The position numbers were made by a program, and so were the translations under genes. Of a DNA stretch of 64,000 bases, positions 3,693 through 13,771 are shown one piece after another. Source of the stretch: an uncultured Candidatus Saccharibacteria bacterium (GTDB taxonomy: Bacteria; Patescibacteriota; Saccharimonadia; CAILAD01; JADZBC01); NCBI GenBank assembly GCA_964600985.1, contig CAZRJR010000001.1, forward strand, positions 335,431-399,430. The letters run 5' to 3'. Numbering within the stretch: position 1 is the stretch's first letter; every line of letters starts with the position of its first letter. The notes beneath the pieces are model-generated. The model worked only from the letters and a program-made list of their open reading frames with translations. It was not told the origin of the DNA and did not search any database.

Positions 3693-4049
3693 CTACAGGT
3701 ATTGGCCCGGATCGGGCTGCACCTGCTGCTTCACCGTCTCGAGCAGTCCACTGACCACTTCGTCCATGAAGCCGGCGCTGCTGACCCCCGTGGGCGTGAA
3801 GATCCGACGGATCTCATCGGCCAGCTCGGTGAAGCCACCAACGTTGTGGTACGTGGCATCAGTCCAGGCGAGATCCGCCAGGGCCACACCCTTGTCGCCA
3901 ACGTAGATGGACTGACCGTAGTTCTCGCTACGGAACACCTCCTTGGGCAGAGCCAGCGGCTTGGTCTCATCCAGCACGTAGATGATGATGGCCGGCACCT
4001 GATCCCCCACCTTGGGGTACCTGAACTCAATCTGGAACACTGGTTCCAT
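3693..4049 (-). CDS. Hypothetical 118-aa protein, high GC, has its own promoter and terminator
   Basis: SD AAAGGAGCG, then 5 nt, then ATG. Promoter at 4093-4121, terminator hairpin ggccct...agggcc plus T-run at about 3600-3635. Overlapping plus-strand ORFs in the track are rejected. Confidence 0.6.
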   Translation of the reverse strand: MEPVFQIEFRYPKVGDQVPAIIIYVLDETKPLALPKEVFRSENYGQSIYVGDKGVALADLAWTDATYHNVGGFTELADEIRRIFTPTGVSSAGFMDEVVSGLLETVKQQVQPDPGQYL

Positions 4050-4092
4050 TACACGCTCCTTTCAAAGCGTTTGAACTACAAAGAGTTACAAC

Positions 4093-4121
4093 ATAATACC
4101 ACTGCAAGCTTATGCTGTCAA
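4093..4121 (-). promoter_or_regulatory. Consensus promoter (rc TTGACA-17-TATTAT) with a GCATAAGCTT spacer motif
   Basis: Plus strand 4116-4121 tgtcaa and 4093-4098 ataata. Confidence 0.55.
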
Positions 4122-4124
4122 TAC

Positions 4125-4547
4125 TTATGCTACATCAGTAATCGGGATTGGGAAGCTACGGACAAAGGTCAATAACTGCTTTGGGTTCTTATGTAGGTCC
4201 ACTTCTATCCAGTTTCCTAACATACCATATTTAATCAGTTCCGCACGCTCGTCCGGGAACAAATCATCGTCAAACCATAGGAATGGCTTGCTTAGGTCTA
4301 TCGCTTCGGTCTTTGCCGTGTGCCAATTGGTTGGCTGGGCATGCTTGGCCAGCAGCTCAATCGTCGCGGGGTTCATGTTGGTTTGCGCAAGTCGTCGAAT
4401 GGCCGGGGCACTGTCTCCCCTACACCAAGTAGTCAGCCAATACACCTCCCCACGCTCCAGGCACTTAGCCACAAACTCATCCACGTGTGGCGCAACAAAC
4501 TTGTCATTAGCTAGTAACACCCCATCGATGTCGAGATAGACGTTCAC
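4125..4547 (-). CDS. HAD-superfamily hydrolase-like protein
   Basis: N-terminal motif YLDIDGVL (HAD motif I DxDGxL). GTG start 8 nt after the hsdR stop. Confidence 0.55.
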   Translation of the reverse strand: MNVYLDIDGVLLANDKFVAPHVDEFVAKCLERGEVYWLTTWCRGDSAPAIRRLAQTNMNPATIELLAKHAQPTNWHTAKTEAIDLSKPFLWFDDDLFPDERAELIKYGMLGNWIEVDLHKNPKQLLTFVRSFPIPITDVA

Positions 4548-4555
4548 TTTAAATA

Positions 4556-7549
4556 TTATGATGGTGTATTCTTATTTGTATTCGTGTACATTTCTTCAAA
4601 AATTCTTTCAGCGATTGTATCTTTCAGGGTGCTGTCCTCATCCAGCTTCTTATAGAATTCGGCTCGCTCCTTAAACATTTTCATAAGTTCATCTTGCATT
4701 ACAGAATTGAAGTGCTCGCGTGCTGCGCCCTTCGGGTTGTTGGCGATTGCTTTCTTGATATCATCTCGGTCGCGTATTCGTGAAATCAATAACATACCGT
4801 CTTCTTCCATGCCTTCTGGCAAGCCAAACTGTTCATTGATACTTTTTACAATCAAAGACAGGCGTTCCATTTCGTCTAGCGGCTTGCCGCTACGTGAATT
4901 GCTAGACATCGGGTCAAGCTCCGATTCCTCGTCTACCAAGCCAATAGCGGCCTTCTTGCCCTTAGAAATGGCGATAGAACTCAAATCTATGTAATCAAGC
5001 ATTTCGGTTGGCAGCGGATCCTTTTCTTTTGGCAGTTTCTTAGCCAAGTTGCGGATGTATTCGTAGAACTGCTCAAGTCCGGCATCGCCAAAATCAAACA
5101 GCTGCGCTATGAAGGCGTACTTGCGCGCAAAATCTACAGCCTTGTCACGGAATGCGGCCTTGTCATCGTCATCCAGGTCGTTCCAGCGTTGCACGGCTTC
5201 ATCCAGCAGGCCGGCGACAACCGCTTGGTTGTTTTGGTCGCCAGAAATCAGCAGCTGGTAATGTTGGCGGACTTGTTCCTCGCCAAATACGCTGGCGCTC
5301 AAAATGTCGCGCTTCAAATCGTACAAGATGTTCGGGTCGGTCGATTCGGACAAGATTGTGCTGGTGTAGTAAGGCTGGAAGTCTTTTTGGATGCTTTCGG
5401 CGTCATTCACAAAATCAAGCACAAATACGTTATCTTTGGCCTTGCCCATTGTGCGGTTTAGGCGACTGAGCGTCTGTACGGTTGCTACGCCGCCCAGTTT
5501 TTTATCGACATACATCACGGCCAGTTTTGGTTGATCAAAGCCAGTCTGGTATTTGTTAGCCACGATCAAGAATTTGTAGTCATCGCTATCGAACTTTTCG
5601 ACCGTTTCGGTTTCACTGAAGCCATTGAGGCCAGCTTCGGTATATTCTAGGCCGCCACGACTTGCATCGACAACCGTGCCAGAGAAGGCTACGATTGCTT
5701 TTTCCGGGTAGCCTTGCTTGGCCAAATAGTCGCGCACTGCTAGATAATAGCGCACGGCGTGTAGGCGAGATTTGGTTACTATCATGGCCTTTGCTTTGCC
5801 GTCTATCAGGCGCTCAATTTGAGAGCGGAAGTGCTCAACCATTAGCTCGGCCTTCTTTTCGATACCATGTTCGTGAAGGTCGGCGTAACCTATAGCCAGG
5901 CGGTAGGCCTTCTTCTTTTCAAACTCAGGGTCAAGCTCGGCCGCTTTTTGGGCGAGTTCAAAATACATTTTGTGCGTAGTGTAGTTTTTGAGAACGTCTA
6001 GGATGAAGCCTTCTTCAACAGCTTGCTTCATGCTGTACAGGCTGAATGGCGAGAAGCGGCCGTCAGCGCCTTTTACGCCAAACAATTCAAGCGTCTTTTC
6101 TTTTGGTGTAGCCGTAAAGGCAAAGAAGCTAACGTGCGGTAGCCGACCGCGTGCGGCCTGCGCGTCTAGCGCAAACTGTTCTTCAGCGTCCGGTGTGGTG
6201 TTGGCTTCGTCTTCCGCTTCAGCGTCTTCCAGTTTGCTCAGGGTTTGTTTCAATGCTTTAGTGCTTTCGCCGCTTTGGCTACTGTGCGCTTCATCGACAA
6301 TAACTGCGAAGGTTTTGCCGGACAGCTTTTCGATATCTTCAACAATAATCGGGAACTTCTGGAGTGTCGATACGATGATTTTGGTTTTGTCTTCCAGTGC
6401 TTCGCGTAGTTCAGCTGAGCTGGTTACGCCGCGCACCACATCGTGCTGCTGTTCAAACTGGCTTACTGTGTCGCGTAGCTGGCGGTCAAGTACCCGGCGG
6501 TCTGTGATTATGATTATCTTGTCAAAGACTTTGCGGTCTTCGGCGTTGTGTAGGTCGCTTAGGTTGTGTGCCGTCCAAGCGATAGAGTTCGACTTGCCGG
6601 AGCCGGCGCTGTGCTGGATGAGATAGTTCTTGCCGGCACCATTTTCGCGCGCATCAGCAATAAGTTTTCGCACCACATCGCGCTGGTGATAGCGAGGGAA
6701 TAGGAGCATTTCTTTTTTGTCGATACGGCCGGTCTTCAGGTCTTTTTTCTTCTCAACTGTGACATGCATGAAGCGGGCGATGATTTCGGCCAGACTATCT
6801 TTGGTGAACACGTCTTCCCATAGATAGTAAGTTGCGAATTTGTTTTCAACGGCCGGGTTGCCAGCACCGTTATTGTCGCCGCGATTGAATGGCAGGAAGT
6901 AGGTTTTTATACCGTCAATCTTGGTAGTCATAAAGGCCAGGTTGTTATCTACGGCAAAGTGAACAAGCGCGCGTTTGAAAGCAAACAGCTTGTCGCTCGG
7001 CTGGCGGTCTGTTTTGTATTGGTGGATTGCGTGCTGCACATTTTGGCCGGTTAGTTGGTTCTTCAACTCAAAAGAAACCACCGGGATTCCGTTGAGTAGC
7101 AGTACCATATCTACCGAGCGTTCATCGCGTGGGCTAAAATACACCTGACGCATCACGCTAAATACGTTGGTTTGGTAAAGTTTCTCAGCATCCGGGTTGA
7201 AGCCACTATTTGGCCGGCGATAGAAGAGGTCGATATGGACACCACGATCAGTAACACCCGAACGCAGCACATCTAGAACACCGATTTGTGAAAGTTCTTG
7301 ATCAAGCCTTCTAGCAAAACTTTCCAGTGCCTGGTCACCATAGATTTCGTGTAGGCGCGCCCACTCATTTGGTTGAGTGGTTTGAATGAAGCGACCTAGC
7401 AGTTCCAAATCGAGCGCAAGTGCGCGGTCATAGTCTTTGTCCTCGACTGGCCGGCCGGCTTCATCTGCACCACGCAAAATATAGCCGTTATGCTCAATAA
7501 GCCAGTTTGTTATGTATTGCTCGAAGTTGGTTTCTTTTAAATCTATCAT
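4556..7549 (-). CDS. hsdR: Type I restriction enzyme R subunit (HsdR), 997 aa
   Basis: Helicase motif I QHSAGSGKS and DEAH-like VIVDEAHSSQ. Size and layout are typical of HsdR. The ATG overlaps the stop of the upstream gene (ATGA). Confidence 0.9.
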   Translation of the reverse strand: MIDLKETNFEQYITNWLIEHNGYILRGADEAGRPVEDKDYDRALALDLELLGRFIQTTQPNEWARLHEIYGDQALESFARRLDQELSQIGVLDVLRSGVTDRGVHIDLFYRRPNSGFNPDAEKLYQTNVFSVMRQVYFSPRDERSVDMVLLLNGIPVVSFELKNQLTGQNVQHAIHQYKTDRQPSDKLFAFKRALVHFAVDNNLAFMTTKIDGIKTYFLPFNRGDNNGAGNPAVENKFATYYLWEDVFTKDSLAEIIARFMHVTVEKKKDLKTGRIDKKEMLLFPRYHQRDVVRKLIADARENGAGKNYLIQHSAGSGKSNSIAWTAHNLSDLHNAEDRKVFDKIIIITDRRVLDRQLRDTVSQFEQQHDVVRGVTSSAELREALEDKTKIIVSTLQKFPIIVEDIEKLSGKTFAVIVDEAHSSQSGESTKALKQTLSKLEDAEAEDEANTTPDAEEQFALDAQAARGRLPHVSFFAFTATPKEKTLELFGVKGADGRFSPFSLYSMKQAVEEGFILDVLKNYTTHKMYFELAQKAAELDPEFEKKKAYRLAIGYADLHEHGIEKKAELMVEHFRSQIERLIDGKAKAMIVTKSRLHAVRYYLAVRDYLAKQGYPEKAIVAFSGTVVDASRGGLEYTEAGLNGFSETETVEKFDSDDYKFLIVANKYQTGFDQPKLAVMYVDKKLGGVATVQTLSRLNRTMGKAKDNVFVLDFVNDAESIQKDFQPYYTSTILSESTDPNILYDLKRDILSASVFGEEQVRQHYQLLISGDQNNQAVVAGLLDEAVQRWNDLDDDDKAAFRDKAVDFARKYAFIAQLFDFGDAGLEQFYEYIRNLAKKLPKEKDPLPTEMLDYIDLSSIAISKGKKAAIGLVDEESELDPMSSNSRSGKPLDEMERLSLIVKSINEQFGLPEGMEEDGMLLISRIRDRDDIKKAIANNPKGAAREHFNSVMQDELMKMFKERAEFYKKLDEDSTLKDTIAERIFEEMYTNTNKNTPS

Positions 7550-8274
7550 GGTAAATCCCTCTCTCCTGATACTAGCTTGTATAAGTTTCTTGCCGCTTCG
7601 TCTTCATCCACTGTATATTCGATGACCTTTGTTACTACAAAAGGTATGATTTCTTTTTCCAACTTAGCAAAGAGGACGTTTATGTAGATGCGCCAATTGC
7701 GGCCGCTACCATCATCTTCGAATACCCGCCACTTTGACATCTTTTCTATTCTGTCGTCTAATGTCGGGACGGGTTGGCCGCGTCTTGGCTGCTTAAACTC
7801 AAAAGTAACAACTTGTTTACCATGCTCTACCGTGCCTAGATGGGCTAAGTAATCTCGAAACCCATTCCAGATGAGTTTTTGTCCTGCAGCATCATTTTTA
7901 TCAACGCCAAGTTCAATGCCATTGTCGAACAAAAGCTTGATAAAGTGTCTGAAGGCATCTGTTTCGCTCACAGTGAAATACACTGAGTCGTGTGGAGTGA
8001 AGCGTTGTGGCTTATCTATGAAGTAGCAAATCTTCGTTAATAGACTCAATGCACTAAATGCGGCCAGAGCAGAAGTTATATTGCCACCACCTAGTTCATT
8101 ATCGATATGTAGATTATTGGCACGTACATAGACAAATGTACGATGATCGGCGCATAGTCCACCAATTCGTTCTTGAATAATCTTGACTACTTCTGATTTA
8201 TAAACACCAATAGCCCCACTGCCATATCCGGCAGCGACAACTCTTTCGGCGATTTCGTATTGGTCTATCATCAA
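7546..8274 (-). CDS. Hypothetical 242-aa protein embedded in the hsd operon. Contains an R-x4-H dyad (FRDYLAHLG) reminiscent of HEPN RNases; family not identified.
   Basis: ATGA overlaps on both sides (with orf420 and hsdR). GC is about 42%, versus about 49% for the hsd genes. Confidence 0.6.
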   Translation of the reverse strand: MMIDQYEIAERVVAAGYGSGAIGVYKSEVVKIIQERIGGLCADHRTFVYVRANNLHIDNELGGGNITSALAAFSALSLLTKICYFIDKPQRFTPHDSVYFTVSETDAFRHFIKLLFDNGIELGVDKNDAAGQKLIWNGFRDYLAHLGTVEHGKQVVTFEFKQPRRGQPVPTLDDRIEKMSKWRVFEDDGSGRNWRIYINVLFAKLEKEIIPFVVTKVIEYTVDEDEAARNLYKLVSGERDLP

Positions 8275-9533
8275 TCAGTTTCCTTAACTTCACTGCCGTC
8301 AGAGTATAGGTTGTAGATTAGGTAGTGCATCTCAACTGATTTTTTATCGTCTTCCAAGCTGTGCTTAGCTACGAAATGCGTAGGGTCTATTTGCTGAAAA
8401 CCATTTATATATGATTCGCTGTTGATAATCTCGGCCGCCAGACTGTCGCGGACTTGTGTGAAGTTTTTATTGCGTGCGAAGAAAATAATAACGCCAAAGT
8501 TATGTCGCCAAGTAAGGTAACCCCTGATTTGGTCTATTGTACTGAAAAGAAGTTGTTTGCCGCCCCATATCTTGCACTCAAAAATCAATATATTACCCTT
8601 GTCGATGCGCAGGTAGATATCTGTTTTGCCTTTTTTCGAGAAGGTTTCGCCAGTGGCAGACCCGTCAAACACTTCATTGAGGTGAGCAAGCAATAAATCT
8701 CGCAATTCTTCCTCACCAAGCGGCGAAACAGATTTCGGTGTTCGCTCCAGCGCCTTCATGTAGCTGTCGATGAATTTGATAATCTCCAAGACTTTCTTTT
8801 GGTCAAGCTCGTACTCTTCCACCGGCTTAGCTTCTGGTTTGAGCTTCTTAACCTCTTTCTTGACCTGTATTCTAGGCTGGACTGGTTCGGTAGCGCCGCG
8901 TTTTACTAGGGGAATTGATATCTTTTTTGATATACCATCTAACAAAGATTCGTTCTTGCTTATCTGTTCTTTGCGTGCGTTTATCTCATTGAGTGCCGCC
9001 TGCTTCAGCTCGGCATTGTGCTTCTTTATATCATTATTTTTCCACTCTATTTGCTGGTTAATGCGCTCGACTTCGGACGCAACTCTTTGTGCGACCTGGT
9101 CGTCGTTTAGCTCTAGGTTATAGGCTTTTATATCAAACCCAACGCCAATACAGTTTTGGTCGATTATGTAATTATCCAGGCTGTAGCTAACAGTAAAGGT
9201 AGATGTCAGTAGTGGCCAAAATTTTCGAAAGTCAGGAAAGTCATCTATCCAAGTACGGATTACACCTCGCTTTATTGGGAAGTTGCGCAAAGGACCTTCA
9301 TTTGCATACCACTCATCGCGCTGATTCGCCGGAATATCTACAACATCTTGTATTATTTCAAGCTCAGGACCTTTGACTATCTGTAGTTCCGGTAGGCCAT
9401 ATTTGTCGTAGTAATACTCGGCAAGCTCTTCTGTATCTGTACCGACTATAGTTGCTTCAGATTCACGGCGTATTTCACCCTGCATATCTTCAATTATCTT
9501 GCGGTATAAGTCGCTTATAGAAGCCCTGTTCAT
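8271..9533 (-). CDS. Hypothetical 420-aa protein embedded in the hsd operon. Central coiled-coil; C-terminal PD-(D/E)xK-like nuclease motif (GKTDIYLRID ... ILIFECKIW ... QIRGY).
   Basis: ATGA overlap with the hsdS stop and with the orf242 start. Low GC. The D...ExK spacing is typical of the restriction-endonuclease fold. Confidence 0.6.
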   Translation of the reverse strand: MNRASISDLYRKIIEDMQGEIRRESEATIVGTDTEELAEYYYDKYGLPELQIVKGPELEIIQDVVDIPANQRDEWYANEGPLRNFPIKRGVIRTWIDDFPDFRKFWPLLTSTFTVSYSLDNYIIDQNCIGVGFDIKAYNLELNDDQVAQRVASEVERINQQIEWKNNDIKKHNAELKQAALNEINARKEQISKNESLLDGISKKISIPLVKRGATEPVQPRIQVKKEVKKLKPEAKPVEEYELDQKKVLEIIKFIDSYMKALERTPKSVSPLGEEELRDLLLAHLNEVFDGSATGETFSKKGKTDIYLRIDKGNILIFECKIWGGKQLLFSTIDQIRGYLTWRHNFGVIIFFARNKNFTQVRDSLAAEIINSESYINGFQQIDPTHFVAKHSLEDDKKSVEMHYLIYNLYSDGSEVKETD

Positions 9534-10828
9534 ACTTTAATCTTTCCGGTGACGGCACTTGATATGAGGCTTGTGCGGCGCTCTTTTAGCAGGTCAATCT
9601 GTTCCTGGACTTTGCTTTTTAACGCCTCGTTTTTTACTTCACAATCATCCAGATACTTGGCTATTCTTTGTTGCTCATCTAAATTGAAATGGACGAAAAA
9701 AAGCTCGTTGAAAATTGTGCTGTTTAGGTTTGCCAGCCCAGAGGTGCTATTGGAGTAGTAGTTGTATTGTTCGCGGGCAAGTTGAGAGTTAAGAAGGTAC
9801 CAGTAGAATTTTGGCTCCTCATTTTCTTTGAGCCTCAATCGCTGCATGAAGTTTGAGTAACTATAACCTTGAGTAGATTCATCCACTACAGAGGTCTTGC
9901 CTATATGAAGTTCGCTACCGCTCGATTTGGTGATAACTAGATCACCAATTTCCAGTCTTGTTTTGTCATATTCTGACTTAGTAATTTGACGCGTGGCCGG
10001 GTCATCAAGGATCCATTGCCCGGTCATTGTCTGTTCAGTGGAGCGTAAAACAACAACGTCGGTTTCATTTCCCATAGGGTCATTTCCCCAAGCTCCGCCC
10101 GTATTTAGAGACAGTATGAACTTTAGTTGTTTCGCTGTAGTGCCGTAAGGTACCTCGCTTAACCACGTATTTTCCGTGTCTTTGAATTCTGCATTGTGGT
10201 TTAGACCGCGCGTGACGGCGTTGGTGATGGTTGCGCGGCGCTTCTCTTCCAGGAGTTCTAGCAGGTGTTGCTGTTTTGCGATTAGGTCGTCAATGAGCGC
10301 TGTTTCTTCATCCAGGTAATTAATTATGCGCTGTTGGGTATCGATAGACGGAACTGGTAGGTAGTATTTCTTGAACTCCGAGTAATTCAGCGTTAGGCGA
10401 ATACCCGTTCCCCAGCCATTTAGTACTTTCTGTCCATCTAGTGCTTTAAGTAAATAAGTAGCATACATCGGCAGAATGTTTTTGCGTGTGCGTAGTGATA
10501 TGTAGGCAGGTGTTATACACCCGCTTTTTTTGACTACGGCCACACGCTGGGTAAGAAAATCGTAGTTCAAGTTTAGGCCGTTTAGCATAATGTCGTCTTT
10601 CTCGACAACGGTATAGCGCCTTATTTCTTCTTTCGTCTTCTCATCCACGTCTATTTTTTTGTCGATAATCTCACCCAGCTTGAATTGCATAGGCTCAACA
10701 GATAGTAAGTCGGTGTTTGTTTGCTTATTCTCCTTGAAAAGAACGGATGCACGCAGCAAATTCCACTCATCAGGAATATCTCCCAAATATTTCAAACCAG
10801 AGTCTTTCATCGTCTGGTATGTTTGCAT
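9530..10828 (-). CDS. hsdS: Type I R-M specificity subunit (HsdS), two target-recognition domains
   Basis: Size (432 aa), position between hsdM and hsdR, and conserved central/terminal repeats (LxxLL...ITNAVTRGLN / ISSAVTGK). Confidence 0.85.
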   Translation of the reverse strand: MQTYQTMKDSGLKYLGDIPDEWNLLRASVLFKENKQTNTDLLSVEPMQFKLGEIIDKKIDVDEKTKEEIRRYTVVEKDDIMLNGLNLNYDFLTQRVAVVKKSGCITPAYISLRTRKNILPMYATYLLKALDGQKVLNGWGTGIRLTLNYSEFKKYYLPVPSIDTQQRIINYLDEETALIDDLIAKQQHLLELLEEKRRATITNAVTRGLNHNAEFKDTENTWLSEVPYGTTAKQLKFILSLNTGGAWGNDPMGNETDVVVLRSTEQTMTGQWILDDPATRQITKSEYDKTRLEIGDLVITKSSGSELHIGKTSVVDESTQGYSYSNFMQRLRLKENEEPKFYWYLLNSQLAREQYNYYSNSTSGLANLNSTIFNELFFVHFNLDEQQRIAKYLDDCEVKNEALKSKVQEQIDLLKERRTSLISSAVTGKIKV

Positions 10829-12516
10829 TAGTCCGTTACCTCGTTCAGCAATTTCAAAATATCTTTCGTGACGGCCTGTAGGTCGTCATCGATTTCATCG
10901 AGGTCGCGTGGCGGTTTGTATTCGTAGAAGTAGCGGTTGAACGGTATTTCGTAGCCAATGCGGTCTTTTTTACGGTCAAGTTTTGCTTCTGGCAGGTGTG
11001 GCAATACTTCGCGCTTGAAGTATTCGTCAATATCTTCACCTAGGGGCACATTTTCGGTATCTTTTTCTTTGCCGTTTAGCACCGTTACTTGCGTATAGCC
11101 AAAGTTTGCGGCGTCAAAAATCTTACTGCGCTTAGTAGGCGCGAACTTTTCGTATAGCTCGTATACTTCATCGATGTCTTCGGCCGTCATCTCTTTGTTC
11201 TTGTCGCCCAAGTTTTTGCGCAGCTTGTGGAATATGTTGCTGGCGTCTATTAGCTGGACTTTGCCTTTCCGCTCGGCGCTCTTGCGGTTTGTTAGCACCC
11301 AGATGTAGGTTGCGATGCCGGTGTTGTAGAACATGTTTGTCGGCAGAGCGATGATAGCTTCCAGGTAATCATTTTCAAGTGCCCAGCGGCGGATTTCGCT
11401 TGGACCGCTACCGGCTGCGCCAGTGAAAAGTGGTGAGCCGTTGTGGACCACCGCAACACGGCCACCCCCTTCATGCGCAGGTCGTAGCTTGCTTACCATG
11501 TGCTGAAGGAATAGCATTTGGCCATCGCTCACGGCTGGCGTGCCGGCCGGGAAACGCCCAGCGCTGCCGCGCGCGGCTTCAGCCTCAACAGCGTCCTTGT
11601 CTTTCTTCCAATCTGTACCGTATGGCGGGTTTGCGATTACATAGTCAAATGTCTTGTCGTAGAATTGGTCGTTACTGAGCGTGCTGTCTTCGGCGTGCTC
11701 GCCGCTGCCGCCTTTGATGCGGTTGGCATCTTCGCCTTTGATCAAAATATCACTTTTGGCGATAGCGTAGGTTTGGGGGTTTAGCTCCTGGCCATATAGG
11801 TAAACTTCGGCAGCCGGGTTGATTTTAGTCTGGATGTATTCTTTTCCAATGGTGAGCATGCCGCCGGTACCCATAGCCGGGTCATACATTTCAATGATTT
11901 TGTTTTCGCCTTTGATGCGCGCGGCATCCGGTTCTAGTAGTAAGCGCACCATCAGGCGGATAACCTCACGCGGCGTGTAGTGCTCTCCGGCGGTTTCGTT
12001 CGATTGCTCATTGAACTTACGGATCAGTTCTTCAAAGATGTAACCCATGTCGTGGTTGCTCACGGCTTCAGGGCTTAGGTCTACTTTGTCCAGTTCTTTT
12101 ACTATCAGGTGGAGTATTTTGCCGCCCTTTAGTTTGTTTAGCTGTTTGGCAAAGTCGAACTTCTCGATAATGTCGCGCACATTTGGGCTGTAGCCGTCTA
12201 GATAGTTGATGAAGTTGGCGTAGATGCCTTCGCTATCGTCAAGCAGCTTTTTGAAGTCGTAGGGGCTTGTGTTGTAGAACTTGTAGCCAGCGGCCTGCTC
12301 CAGGAAGGGCGTGAGGTCTGACACTTTGCCATCCATATCGCCGTAGGTACGCAGTACTTCGGGCTTCGTCTTGGCAAGCACACTATCTAGGCGTTTGAGC
12401 ACCACGAGCGGGAGTATCACGTCCTGGTATTCGTGCTGCTTCCAGCCACCGCGCAAAATGTCGGCGATATTCCATATAGTTGATGCTTGGTTTTTCGGGT
12501 TTTCGTGTGCTTCCAT
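10828..12516 (-). CDS. hsdM: Type I R-M N6-adenine DNA methyltransferase subunit (HsdM)
   Basis: Motifs GEHYTPREV, DPAMGTGGML (AdoMet binding) and VIANPPYG (catalytic NPPY). Confidence 0.9.
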   Translation of the reverse strand: MEAHENPKNQASTIWNIADILRGGWKQHEYQDVILPLVVLKRLDSVLAKTKPEVLRTYGDMDGKVSDLTPFLEQAAGYKFYNTSPYDFKKLLDDSEGIYANFINYLDGYSPNVRDIIEKFDFAKQLNKLKGGKILHLIVKELDKVDLSPEAVSNHDMGYIFEELIRKFNEQSNETAGEHYTPREVIRLMVRLLLEPDAARIKGENKIIEMYDPAMGTGGMLTIGKEYIQTKINPAAEVYLYGQELNPQTYAIAKSDILIKGEDANRIKGGSGEHAEDSTLSNDQFYDKTFDYVIANPPYGTDWKKDKDAVEAEAARGSAGRFPAGTPAVSDGQMLFLQHMVSKLRPAHEGGGRVAVVHNGSPLFTGAAGSGPSEIRRWALENDYLEAIIALPTNMFYNTGIATYIWVLTNRKSAERKGKVQLIDASNIFHKLRKNLGDKNKEMTAEDIDEVYELYEKFAPTKRSKIFDAANFGYTQVTVLNGKEKDTENVPLGEDIDEYFKREVLPHLPEAKLDRKKDRIGYEIPFNRYFYEYKPPRDLDEIDDDLQAVTKDILKLLNEVTD

Positions 12517-13017: not shown

Positions 13018-13046
13018 TTGACATATTGTAGCATAAGTGTTATAAT
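13018..13046 (+). promoter_or_regulatory. Perfect consensus promoter TTGACA-17-TATAAT (the spacer contains TGTAGCATAAG)
   Basis: ttgacatattgtagcataagtgttataat read directly. Confidence 0.6.
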
Positions 13047-13105: not shown

Positions 13106-13771
13106 ATGCACGGCATCCAGCTCGTCGTCGTGACCATTGCGATGATCTTCATGTCCCTCTATGCAATTCGAGAGCTTTACCTGTGGCGAGCTGAGATCAT
13201 CCTCGGTACTCGACTGGGAACCGCCTACGGTGTGTTCTGGGGCCTCGTCCTCACGTACACGGCCGGCAAGTGTTTCCAGAACTTCCAGGTGGGGCCGGAG
13301 TTCTACCGGTACCACTTGAACGACCTTGGCTTTGTGGCCGCCTGGGGCGGCATCATCTTGAACATCGAGATGAAGAGCCTTTGTCGCCGGGAGTTCGTGG
13401 CCTTCAACAAGCGGCCCATCATCACGCTTCGCATGGGACTGAGTGTGGCGCTCATAGCCGCTCTCATGTTCGAGTACATGACCGCGCACGATGATGGCAC
13501 CTTCACCACCCAGGGGCTTCACTACTCCGGCCAGTTGGACTACATGGACATCACCATGTACCTGACCTGTTTCGTTGCCATGTGGCTTCTCGCTCCGTGG
13601 ATGTACGAAGTCAGAGACGCTCCTGCCGTGGCCGAGGTGAGTGTTGCCCCAGCGGCAGCCAAGAGCCGGGCGCAGAAGTTGACCCCACCCACTGGTGTTG
13701 ACCCGAAAGCTATGTCTCGACGGACCACCCCCAAGGGGACCAGGCCCCAGCCAGCGAGGCGCAAGCGGTAG
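13106..13771 (+). CDS. Polytopic membrane protein (about 5-6 TM helices), high GC, unknown function, basic P/R-rich C-terminal tail
   Basis: SD CAGGAG before the ATG. Hydrophobic segments. GC3-rich codons. Confidence 0.6.
   Translation: MHGIQLVVVTIAMIFMSLYAIRELYLWRAEIILGTRLGTAYGVFWGLVLTYTAGKCFQNFQVGPEFYRYHLNDLGFVAAWGGIILNIEMKSLCRREFVAFNKRPIITLRMGLSVALIAALMFEYMTAHDDGTFTTQGLHYSGQLDYMDITMYLTCFVAMWLLAPWMYEVRDAPAVAEVSVAPAAAKSRAQKLTPPTGVDPKAMSRRTTPKGTRPQPARRKR

What the first reader, a model, noticed from the sequence alone, without database searches (positions are those of the whole stretch)
7546..9533. Two unknown low-GC genes inserted into a Type I R-M operon (hsdM-hsdS-orf420-orf242-hsdR): candidate undescribed defence/Abi module
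All five genes are on one strand and coupled by ATGA/TAATG start-stop overlaps (12516 to 4556), so orf420 and orf242 are co-translated with the restriction complex. Their GC (~42%) is clearly below that of hsdM/S/R (~49%), which argues for a later insertion. orf420 (420 aa) has an unrecognised N-terminal domain, a lysine-rich coiled-coil and a C-terminal D...(E)xK arrangement (TDIYL ... IFECK ... Q) typical of PD-(D/E)xK nucleases. orf242 carries an Rx4H dyad (RDYLAH) like HEPN RNases. Type I R-M loci are a known integration hotspot for accessory defence genes (PrrC, RloC and Abi proteins are established examples). This pair matches none of the families I can recognise by motif: no Walker A, no NTase GSx9-13DxD.
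Basis: partly seen in the sequence, partly recalled or inferred. Interest (0 to 1): 0.8.

Follow-up and report, generated by a model that had tools for sequence, protein, structure and literature searches.

The report
Two separate accessory genes in hsd operon
A Type I restriction-modification operon carries two extra genes that turn out to be independent add-ons, one a catalogued but untested defence candidate with a restriction-enzyme-like DNA-cutting domain and one a rare, uncatalogued RNase-like (HEPN) protein always placed just before the restriction gene; this fits a known theme and is not a new kind of system.

Summary

Three parts of the interpretation fail. (1) orf420 is not undescribed: it matches PADLOC PDC-S54 over its full length (E 1.5e-77), one of 145 untested candidates found by "guilt-by-embedding". 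(2) The genes are not a pair. orf242 relatives sit just upstream of hsdR without orf420; orf420 relatives occur in about 50 loci without orf242; a different 211-aa gene can occupy orf420's slot. (3) The GC argument is weak, because hsdS is equally AT-rich.

Best reading: two independent embedded effectors. One is a mobile single-gene DNase candidate. The other is a new HEPN family, absent from Pfam, NCBIfam and PADLOC, coupled to hsdR like a minimal PrrC. HEPN genes in R-M operons are an established theme, so this is a new member of a known kind. No function was tested.

The parts
10828..12516 (-). hsdM, Type I methyltransferase (562 aa)
   Evidence: Pfam HsdM_N + N6_Mtase (E 1.7e-63); PADLOC MTase_I (E 3.8e-247).
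9530..10828 (-). hsdS, specificity subunit (432 aa); variable between related operons
   Evidence: Pfam Methylase_S; PADLOC Specificity_I (E 2.5e-94). Only 34-37% identical to hsdS in L002-L004, where hsdM and hsdR are 68-87% identical. GC 0.436.
8271..9533 (-). orf420, a PADLOC PDC-S54 family protein (420 aa); variable cargo in the slot between hsdS and orf242
   Evidence: PDLC05036 PDC-S54, E 1.5e-77, aa 3-410 against profile 10-407/410. More than 245 homologues. AF2 mean pLDDT 80.8. Absent from the otherwise homologous operons L002-L004 and replaced by an unrelated 211-aa gene in L072-L074.
9114..9533 (-). orf420 N-terminal alpha/beta domain (aa 1-140), fold unassigned; candidate sensor or binding domain
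8811..9104 (-). orf420 long helix (aa 144-204) followed by a disordered Lys-rich linker (aa 205-241)
   Evidence: DSSP helix 144-204; pLDDT below 50 for aa 205-241.
8304..8801 (-). orf420 C-terminal PD-(D/E)xK nuclease domain (aa 245-410), BamHI-like
8571..8621 (-). Predicted catalytic core of orf420: D305 (8621-8619) to E319-C320-K321 (8579-8571)
   Evidence: Read directly from the sequence. Conservation. D305 lies at the start of strand 306-310, and E319/K321 lie within strand 314-322.
7546..8271 (-). orf242 (241 aa from the ATG at 8271): HEPN-like protein of an uncatalogued family, translationally coupled to hsdR
7840..7857 (-). orf242 Rx4H motif: R139-D-Y-L-A-H144
   Evidence: R139 and H144 are invariant in 44 sequences down to about 20% identity and present in at least 90% of 101. 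The residue after R is N or D. The motif lies at the C-terminal end of helix 128-145, matching the 'end of helix-3' position described in PMC3710099.
8080..8091 (-). orf242 family-specific G61-G62-G63-N64 motif at the N-cap of helix 64-86
   Evidence: G61 and G63 are invariant; G62 and N64 are in at least 90% of sequences. It is not part of the canonical HEPN signature and its role is unknown.
4556..7549 (-). hsdR, restriction/translocase subunit (997 aa)
   Evidence: Pfam HSDR_N, SWI2_SNF2, ResIII and T1R_D3-like; PADLOC REase_I (E 9.7e-46).

Best explanation
The locus is a horizontally mobile Type I R-M operon carrying two independently acquired accessory effector genes, both expressed from the hsd transcript.

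(1) orf242 is a small HEPN-type protein of a rare family that has not been catalogued. In its clade it is a fixed partner of hsdR, always immediately upstream with a 4-nt start/stop overlap. I infer that it is a metal-independent RNase using R139/H144. I further infer that it is held inactive by the HsdR or Type I complex and released when restriction is blocked or overwhelmed. That would make it a minimal, ATPase-less analogue of PrrC, giving abortive-infection back-up.

(2) orf420 is a member of the PADLOC candidate family PDC-S54. It is a self-contained single-gene module: a variable N-terminal domain, then a long helix, then a flexible Lys-rich linker, then a BamHI-like PD-(D/E)xK DNase domain. 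I infer that the N-terminal domain senses a phage cue or a DNA feature and gates the DNase. It occupies a cargo slot between hsdS and orf242 that is empty or holds a different gene in sister operons.

Shown: gene order, coupling, fold predictions, motif conservation and separability. Inferred: the RNase and DNase activities, gating by the R-M complex, and any anti-phage phenotype.
For: ARCHITECTURE AND COUPLING.

orf420.
- It matches PDC-S54 over its full length. PDCs are defined by embedding in BREX, DISARM or Type I RM systems, and 145 remain untested.
- The C-terminal domain has a PD-(D/E)xK fold and a conserved E...D...ExK...Q core.
- Neighbours of homologues include hsdS (7 loci) and hsdR (4 loci), TIR, Mrr_cat, SMODS, a Pycsar-type TIR, ThiF+DUF6527+DUF6791 and recombinases. 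It also sits in another hsd operon next to a DUF87 ATPase.

orf242.
- The R[N/D]xLxH motif is invariant and lies at the end of a helix. This matches the HEPN definition in PMC3710099.
- Sub-threshold sequence hits of family members converge on HEPN families. The Pfam hits are pEK499_p136 (2 members), LA2681 and ApeA. The PADLOC hits are Cas13a (2 members), CARF_HEPN and Csx1.
- One family member is fused to BrxA, and another sits beside a Shedu-type gene.
- The position immediately 5' of hsdR recurs at 85%, 81%, 61%, 45% and 35% identity.

SEPARABILITY AND THE CARGO SLOT.

SELECTION. Both genes are under purifying selection.

PRECEDENT. At least 16 HEPN clades are linked to R-M systems, with a PrrC-like model already proposed for them (PMC3710099).
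Against: No activity or phenotype was tested, and PDC-S54 itself is untested.

The HEPN assignment is moderate, not decisive.
- Foldseek against the PDB found nothing significant.
- No HEPN Pfam model reaches threshold.
- The canonical second HEPN motif, Ex3[KR] in helix 2, is absent. The family has K80, D42 and GGGN instead.

More distant orf242-family members are not next to hsdR (L059, L067), so coupling to hsdR is a property of one clade, not of the whole family.

Nothing shows a physical interaction with HsdR.

The fold and function of orf420's N-terminal domain are unassigned.
Confidence: 0.6

Rival explanations
1. One reading: orf420 and orf242 form one obligate two-gene defence, Abi or toxin-antitoxin module that was inserted as a unit into the hsd operon.
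For: The genes are adjacent and overlap by one base (TGATG), so translation is probably coupled. They are found together in three sources: the window, L001 and L064. Both have low GC. A DNase combined with an RNase-like protein could in principle be a toxin and its partner.
Against: orf242 occurs without orf420 in L002, L003, L004, L061 and L072-L074. orf420 relatives occur without orf242 in all 54 genome loci and in L065 and L066, and tblastn with orf242 found nothing in any of those. Homology between the window and L002 breaks exactly at orf242's start. PADLOC classed the orf420 family as a single-gene candidate.
Confidence: 0.07
2. orf242 is not an RNase. It is a non-catalytic helical accessory or regulatory subunit of this Type I enzyme lineage, for example an HsdR assembly, restriction-alleviation or specificity adaptor.
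For: It is constant in position and translationally coupled to hsdR across 35-85% identity. Foldseek finds no HEPN match. No HEPN Pfam hit is significant. The Ex3[KR] motif is missing. Some HEPN-fold domains are non-catalytic, according to PMC3710099.
Against: Strict invariance of R139 and H144, with N or D after the R, down to about 20% identity is what a catalytic motif predicts. The family also occurs away from hsdR: beside a Shedu-type gene, fused to BrxA, and stand-alone. Most Type I systems work without such a subunit (established knowledge).
Confidence: 0.15
3. orf420 is a conventional stand-alone restriction endonuclease of Type IV (modification-dependent) or Type II-like kind. It would complement the Type I system by cutting phage DNA directly, and would not act as a sensor-gated Abi effector.
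For: The closest structural matches are true restriction enzymes: OkrAI, BamHI, BstYI, BglII and McrC. Type IV enzymes such as BrxU/GmrSD are often embedded in Type I RM, BREX and Hma systems. Homologues occur without a cognate methylase nearby in many loci, as expected for Type IV enzymes.
Against: No recognisable DNA- or modification-reader domain was detected: Pfam finds nothing, and the N-terminal domain resembles YbjN, chaperone or START-like folds only weakly. The N-terminal domain is replaced in distant homologues. This is a rival only for the mode of action and is compatible with the rest of the best explanation.
Confidence: 0.25
4. orf420 is a selfish mobile nuclease gene, similar to a homing endonuclease, that has inserted between genes and gives the host no defence benefit.
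For: It is a single gene with patchy distribution across phyla and unrelated contexts, including beside the ATP synthase operon in L066. It is inserted precisely at a gene junction.
Against: It is under strong purifying selection. It is absent from viral contigs by pattern scan. Its neighbours are enriched for defence genes and it is repeatedly embedded in hsd operons on the same strand. No flanking repeats were looked for, so that point is untested.
Confidence: 0.06

Closest known systems
PADLOC PDC-S54 (phage defence candidate, single gene; Payne et al., bioRxiv 10.1101/2024.01.29.577857)
   Same: orf420 matches the PDC-S54 HMM end to end (E 1.5e-77). It sits embedded in a Type I RM operon on the same strand, which is exactly how PDCs were discovered.
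   Different: Nothing structural or functional is published for PDC-S54 in the library searched. The BamHI-like nuclease domain, the domain layout and the variable N-terminal domain are described here from predictions only.
BamHI/OkrAI/BstYI/BglII-type PD-(D/E)xK restriction endonucleases
   Different: Sequence identity is only 8-13%, and there is no sequence-level family match. orf420 has an extra 240-residue N-terminal region and no dedicated cognate methylase. Its distribution is that of a defence-island gene.
PrrC (and RloC) anticodon nucleases embedded in Type I R-M loci
   Same: Like PrrC, orf242 is an Rx4H HEPN-type protein encoded between hsdS and hsdR of a Type I operon. The order prrA(hsdM)-prrB(hsdS)-prrC-prrD(hsdR) is established knowledge, and the role of PrrC is summarised. 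A latent RNase guarded by the R-M enzyme is the natural model.
   Different: orf242 has 241 aa and no ABC-ATPase or Walker A domain. It has no sequence similarity to PrrC or RloC models in PADLOC. It is therefore not a member, only a positional and possibly functional analogue.
R-M-linked HEPN families of Anantharaman et al. 2013 (e.g. pEK499_p136, ApeA, LA2681; PMC3710099)
   Same: It has a helical HEPN-like fold and R[N/D]x3H at the end of a helix, and it is embedded in R-M operons. Sub-threshold hits of some family members go to these Pfam models. pEK499_p136 and ApeA are themselves reported in R-M operons.
   Different: No member reaches the Pfam thresholds; the best E-value is 0.0037, against a distant member. 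The family has its own invariant D42, GGGN(61-64) and K80 and lacks Ex3[KR]. It also has a beta-rich insert (aa ~150-196) between the motif helix and the last core helix.
HEPN toxins of HEPN/MNT toxin-antitoxin systems (PDB 7ae2, 8xdj, 5yep) and HI0074
   Different: There is no adjacent MNT nucleotidyltransferase antitoxin. Identity is 9-12%. orf242 is about 100 residues larger, with inserts.

Membership tests
PADLOC PDC-S54 | Full-length match to the PDLC05036 profile | tested here: met
   E 1.5e-77, 259.8 bits, aa 3-410 against profile 10-407/410.
PADLOC PDC-S54 | Family contains members embedded in BREX, DISARM or Type I RM systems on the same strand | tested here: met
   The window; also L017, L018, L028, L064 and L065. 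Definition taken.
PADLOC PDC-S54 | Demonstrated anti-phage activity | not testable with these tools
   The source paper states that the 145 PDCs are untested. No paper in the library mentions PDC-S54.
PD-(D/E)xK nuclease superfamily (orf420 C-terminal domain) | Restriction-endonuclease-like alpha/beta core fold | tested here: met
PD-(D/E)xK nuclease superfamily (orf420 C-terminal domain) | Conserved D...(D/E)xK catalytic residues on adjacent strands | tested here: met
   D305 and K321 are invariant and E319 is in at least 90% of 46 sequences; E296 and Q335 are also invariant. The residues map to strands 306-310 and 314-322.
PD-(D/E)xK nuclease superfamily (orf420 C-terminal domain) | Significant sequence match to a curated PD-(D/E)xK family model | tested here: not met
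   No Pfam, NCBIfam or PDB sequence hit. Membership rests on the predicted fold plus the motif.
HEPN superfamily (orf242) | Four-helix up-down bundle with an insert between helices 2 and 3 | tested here: inconclusive
HEPN superfamily (orf242) | Rx4-6H motif at the end of helix 3, with a polar residue (N/D/H) after the R | tested here: met
   R139-[D/N]-x-L-x-H144 is invariant in 44 sequences and present in at least 90% of 101. It lies at the C-terminal end of helix 128-145. Definition from PMC3710099.
HEPN superfamily (orf242) | Second conserved acidic residue in helix 2 (Ex3[KR]); present in many but not all HEPN families | tested here: not met
   Helix 64-86 has a conserved K80 but no conserved acidic residue four positions before it. 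The conserved acidic residues are D42 (helix 1) and D198.
HEPN superfamily (orf242) | Significant match to a curated HEPN family model | tested here: not met
   Only sub-threshold hits from individual distant members: pEK499_p136 0.0037 (2 members), LA2681 0.014 and ApeA 0.098 in Pfam; Cas13a, CARF_HEPN and Csx1 at 0.0013-0.0045 in PADLOC. Their convergence on HEPN is suggestive, not proof.
HEPN superfamily (orf242) | Metal-independent RNase activity | not testable with these tools
   Needs biochemistry.
PrrC/RloC anticodon nucleases | N-terminal ABC-type ATPase domain with Walker A | tested here: not met
   orf242 is 241 aa with no ATPase hit in Pfam or PADLOC. It is therefore not filed as PrrC or RloC.
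PrrC/RloC anticodon nucleases | Encoded inside a Type I R-M locus between hsdS and hsdR | tested here: met
   This is a similarity of position only.
Two-gene toxin-antitoxin or defence module (orf420 + orf242) | Consistent co-occurrence of the two families | tested here: not met
   They co-occur only in the window, L001 and L064. They are separate in more than 60 other loci.

The most novel reading that the evidence does not exclude
orf242 founds a previously unrecognised minimal class of R-M-guarded HEPN RNases. It would be a 240-aa protein without any ATPase that binds HsdR directly and fires when the Type I enzyme is inhibited. The hsdS|orf242 junction would then be a dedicated cargo slot into which further effectors (PDC-S54, or a 211-aa membrane protein) are plugged, giving a three-layer defence operon of restriction, DNase and RNase expressed from one transcript.
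Probability: 0.25. Interest if true: 0.6.

Novelty: new member of a known kind. Interest (0 to 1): 0.4.

Why it matters
If the predictions hold, the locus gives two testable things.

First, it gives a structural and mechanistic hypothesis for PDC-S54, one of 145 catalogued but untested defence candidates: an N-terminal sensor, then a long helix, then a BamHI-like DNase.

Second, it gives a compact HEPN protein whose only constant partner is hsdR. That would be a simpler model than PrrC for studying how an R-M complex keeps a suicide RNase silent.

The three-state slot between hsdS and orf242 (empty, PDC-S54, or a 211-aa membrane protein) is also a clean natural example of modular embedding of defence genes.

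None of this changes current concepts. HEPN genes in R-M operons, and defence genes embedded in Type I systems, are both established.

Tried and rejected
- Pfam, NCBIfam and PHROGs on both proteins gave nothing significant.
- Sequence searches of the PDB with orf420, with orf242 and with the orf242 family profile gave nothing.
- Foldseek against the PDB for orf242 had no hit with E below 1. The afdb50 library was unavailable.
- The search for related loci with the diverse orf242 alignment failed because there was no conserved block.
- The metagenome scan with the close orf242 alignment returned only the contig already known as L064.
- Viral-contig scans for both families returned nothing. These scans are pattern-based, so their sensitivity is limited.
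- The third word-indexed homologue search, using the profile, added only 3 proteins.
- The supplement of Payne et al. has no retrievable PDC-S54 row; the files were cut when stored.
- NG86 dS was saturated, so no numerical dN/dS could be given.
- Rejected: GC as evidence for a joint late insertion; the obligate-pair model (see rival explanations); a PrrC/RloC family assignment, because there is no ATPase domain; and the weak Het-C, MTHFR and designed-protein hits, which I treat as chance.

Full report
1. THE OBSERVATION

The region holds five minus-strand ORFs: hsdM (12516..10828, 562 aa), hsdS (10828..9530, 432 aa), orf420 (9533..8271), orf242 (8274 or 8271..7546) and hsdR (7549..4556, 997 aa). 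Pfam and PADLOC confirm the three hsd genes. The junctions are ATGA at hsdS/orf420, TGATG at orf420/orf242 and ATGA at orf242/hsdR. All homologues of orf242 begin MI(D/N)QYE, so the real start is the ATG at 8271 (241 aa), not the TTG at 8274. No terminator-like site lies on the coding strand within the operon.

Both ORFs are genuine genes. Against relatives whose synonymous sites are saturated, dN is only 0.09-0.12, similar to hsdM and hsdR.

The GC statement is only half right. orf420 is 0.428 and orf242 is 0.426, but hsdS is 0.436. hsdM is 0.509, hsdR is 0.488 and the window as a whole is 0.501.

2. orf420

Pfam, NCBIfam, PHROGs and PDB sequence searches find nothing. PADLOC-DB, however, gives a full-length match to PDC-S54 (E 1.5e-77).

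[quoted passage not shown] No paper in the library mentions PDC-S54 by name.

The family is broad. There are more than 245 clusters and 54 genome loci in Patescibacteria, Bacteroidota, Proteobacteria, Chloroflexota, Planctomycetota and some archaea.

An AlphaFold2 model built from 46 sequences has mean pLDDT 80.8. It shows:
- an N-terminal alpha/beta domain (aa 1-140);
- one long helix (aa 144-204);
- a disordered Lys-rich linker (aa 205-241);
- a C-terminal alpha/beta domain (aa 245-410).

3. orf242

No library covers it. The word-indexed search found only 11 relatives, all at least 61% identical. An exhaustive profile search of 1.84 billion representatives found 101 relatives, most of them 200-250 aa.

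Across 44 sequences down to about 20% identity, the invariant residues are D42, G61, G63, R139 and H144. R50, G62, N64, F72, K80, F107, W135, L142 and D198 are in at least 90%. These give a GGGN motif and a W-x3-R-[N/D]-x-L-x-H motif.

The AlphaFold2 model is very confident (pLDDT 93.5, pTM 0.90) and mainly helical. R139-H144 sits at the C-terminal end of helix 128-145.

[quoted passage not shown] Both features are met here.

Independent weak evidence comes from scanning family members one by one.
- In the Pfam scans, the only family hit by more than one of the 101 members is HEPN pEK499_p136. There are also single hits to HEPN_LA2681 and HEPN_Apea.
- In the PADLOC scan, the weak hits include Cas13a (2 members), CARF_HEPN and Csx1.

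The caveats are real.
- Foldseek against the PDB gives nothing with E below 1.
- No curated HEPN model reaches threshold.
- The frequent second HEPN motif, Ex3[KR], is absent.

I put HEPN-type RNase at roughly 70%.

4. THE TWO GENES ARE NOT A PAIR

Contexts recovered:
- M-S-420-242-R: the window, L001 and L064.
- M-S-242-R without 420: L002 and L003 (85% identical orf242), L004 (61%) and L061-L063 (45%).
- M-S-orf211-242-R: L072-L074 (81%). The 211-aa gene is unrelated to orf420 and has an N-terminal hydrophobic helix.
- A 35%-identical relative directly upstream of, and overlapping, an HSDR_N-domain gene with no hsdS upstream: L069 and L070.
- M-S-420-R without 242: L017, L018 and L028.
- hsdM-DUF5677-three small ORFs-hsdS-420-DUF87 ATPase-hsdR: L065.
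- 420 alone, beside the ATP synthase operon: L066.

tblastn with orf242 found nothing in any of the 54 orf420 genome loci.

At the DNA level, homology between the window and L002 covers 4593-8271 and 10761-12501 and stops exactly at orf242's start codon. L064 is homologous across 4587-9597. Nothing outside the operon is shared.

Three conclusions follow. The hsd operon is a mobile cassette. orf242->hsdR is the constant unit of this lineage. The interval between hsdS and orf242 is a slot with variable cargo: empty, orf420 or orf211.

5. DEFENCE CONTEXT

The two genes on either side of orf420 homologues include:
- Methylase_S (7), N6_Mtase/HsdM_N (4/3) and HsdR domains (4);
- ThiF+DUF6527+DUF6791 (4);
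- TIR (2), Mrr_cat (2), SMODS, a Pycsar-type TIR and HipA;
- serine recombinases (3) and Peptidase_M78/HTH.

L064 lies next to an OLD-TOPRIM ATPase plus a UvrD helicase (Gabija-like) and recombinase and relaxase genes. L002 lies next to serine recombinases.

For the orf242 family, one remote member sits beside a Shedu-type SduA_C gene and a methylase. One (P0204) is a fusion of full-length BrxA with an orf242-like C-terminal part that includes the Rx4H region. One is near a PLD nuclease and an HTH gene. One is stand-alone.

Neither family was found on viral contigs.

6. MECHANISM (INFERRED)

For orf242, I propose an Rx4H RNase kept silent by HsdR or the Type I complex and unleashed when restriction is inhibited or saturated. 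This is the PrrC paradigm, which Anantharaman et al. already extended by analogy to the at least 16 R-M-linked HEPN clades. orf242 lacks PrrC's ABC ATPase, so any gating must work differently. It is not a PrrC or RloC family member.

For orf420, I propose a self-contained DNase whose N-terminal domain gates the BamHI-like domain or targets it. Whether it acts as a Type IV-like restriction enzyme on phage DNA or as an abortive-infection DNase cannot be decided here.

The two effectors probably act independently and simply share the hsd transcript.

7. NOVELTY

orf420 is already catalogued as an untested candidate. What is new here is a predicted fold and domain plan.

orf242 belongs to a family absent from Pfam, NCBIfam, PHROGs and PADLOC v2.0.0. 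However, the concept of HEPN genes embedded in R-M operons is well established.

Overall this is a new member of a known kind. The claims of 'undescribed', 'pair' and 'GC-based insertion' do not hold.

Noticed in passing
L072:6373-7008 (+), also L073 and L074: A 211-aa protein with an N-terminal hydrophobic helix occupies the same slot between hsdS and orf242 that orf420 fills in the window. It has no similarity to orf420 (E 1.5) and no PDB sequence match. It may be another embedded defence candidate.
   Followed up: partly
P0204 (559 aa; protein): A natural fusion: full-length BrxA, the BREX component (aa 4-237, E 6.7e-70), followed by a C-terminal region that matches the orf242 family profile around the Rx4H motif (aa 422-465, E 6.6e-6). 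This links the orf242 family to BREX.
   Followed up: partly
window 4125-4547 (-): A 140-aa gene starts 8 nt downstream of the hsdR stop on the same strand. It has a weak, sub-threshold hit to HAD_SAK_2, the 'HAD domain in Swiss Army Knife RNA repair proteins' (E 0.0057). An RNA-repair-type gene next to a putative RNase would be interesting, but the gene is not conserved downstream of hsdR in the related operons.
   Followed up: partly
L064:11867-16034 (-): Immediately downstream of the sister hsd operon lies an OLD-like TOPRIM/AAA_15-21 ATPase plus a UvrD-type helicase (a Gabija-like pair). Serine recombinase and Replic_Relax genes lie upstream, so the operon rides on a mobile defence island.
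   Followed up: no
L065:6-2754 and 3999-6074; also the 61.7-kb contig without DNA: Another Type I operon is heavily loaded with embedded genes: hsdM-DUF5677-three small ORFs-hsdS-PDC-S54 homologue-DUF87/TrwB-like ATPase (691 aa)-hsdR. On the longer contig an EVE+NucS_C/YhcG-like gene lies upstream.
   Followed up: no
L022, L025, L026, L035, L039 (downstream of the PDC-S54 homologues): In several Bacteroidota loci (Mucilaginibacter and relatives), the PDC-S54 homologue is followed on the opposite strand by a conserved ThiF (E1-like) + DUF6527 + DUF6791 cluster. This may be a ubiquitin-like conjugation defence module.
   Followed up: no
L061:8026-8946, L002:13704-14261, L004:5477-6310, L072:10695-11618: Genes overlapping the 3' end of hsdR differ between sister operons: NucS_C/YhcG-like nuclease, a weak GIY-YIG hit, DUF4357/RAMA, and DUF4268. 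The position downstream of hsdR is therefore also a variable cargo site.
   Followed up: no
window 13018-13046 (+): A perfect sigma-70 consensus (TTGACA, 17 nt, TATAAT, with an extended -10 TG) lies upstream of the 221-aa ORF at 13106-13771 (+), which has no Pfam match. It is divergent from hsdM.
   Followed up: no
L042-L058 (distant orf420 homologues): These proteins are about 400-425 aa but match orf420 only over aa ~145-410. The N-terminal domain is therefore swapped while the helix and nuclease module is kept.
   Followed up: partly
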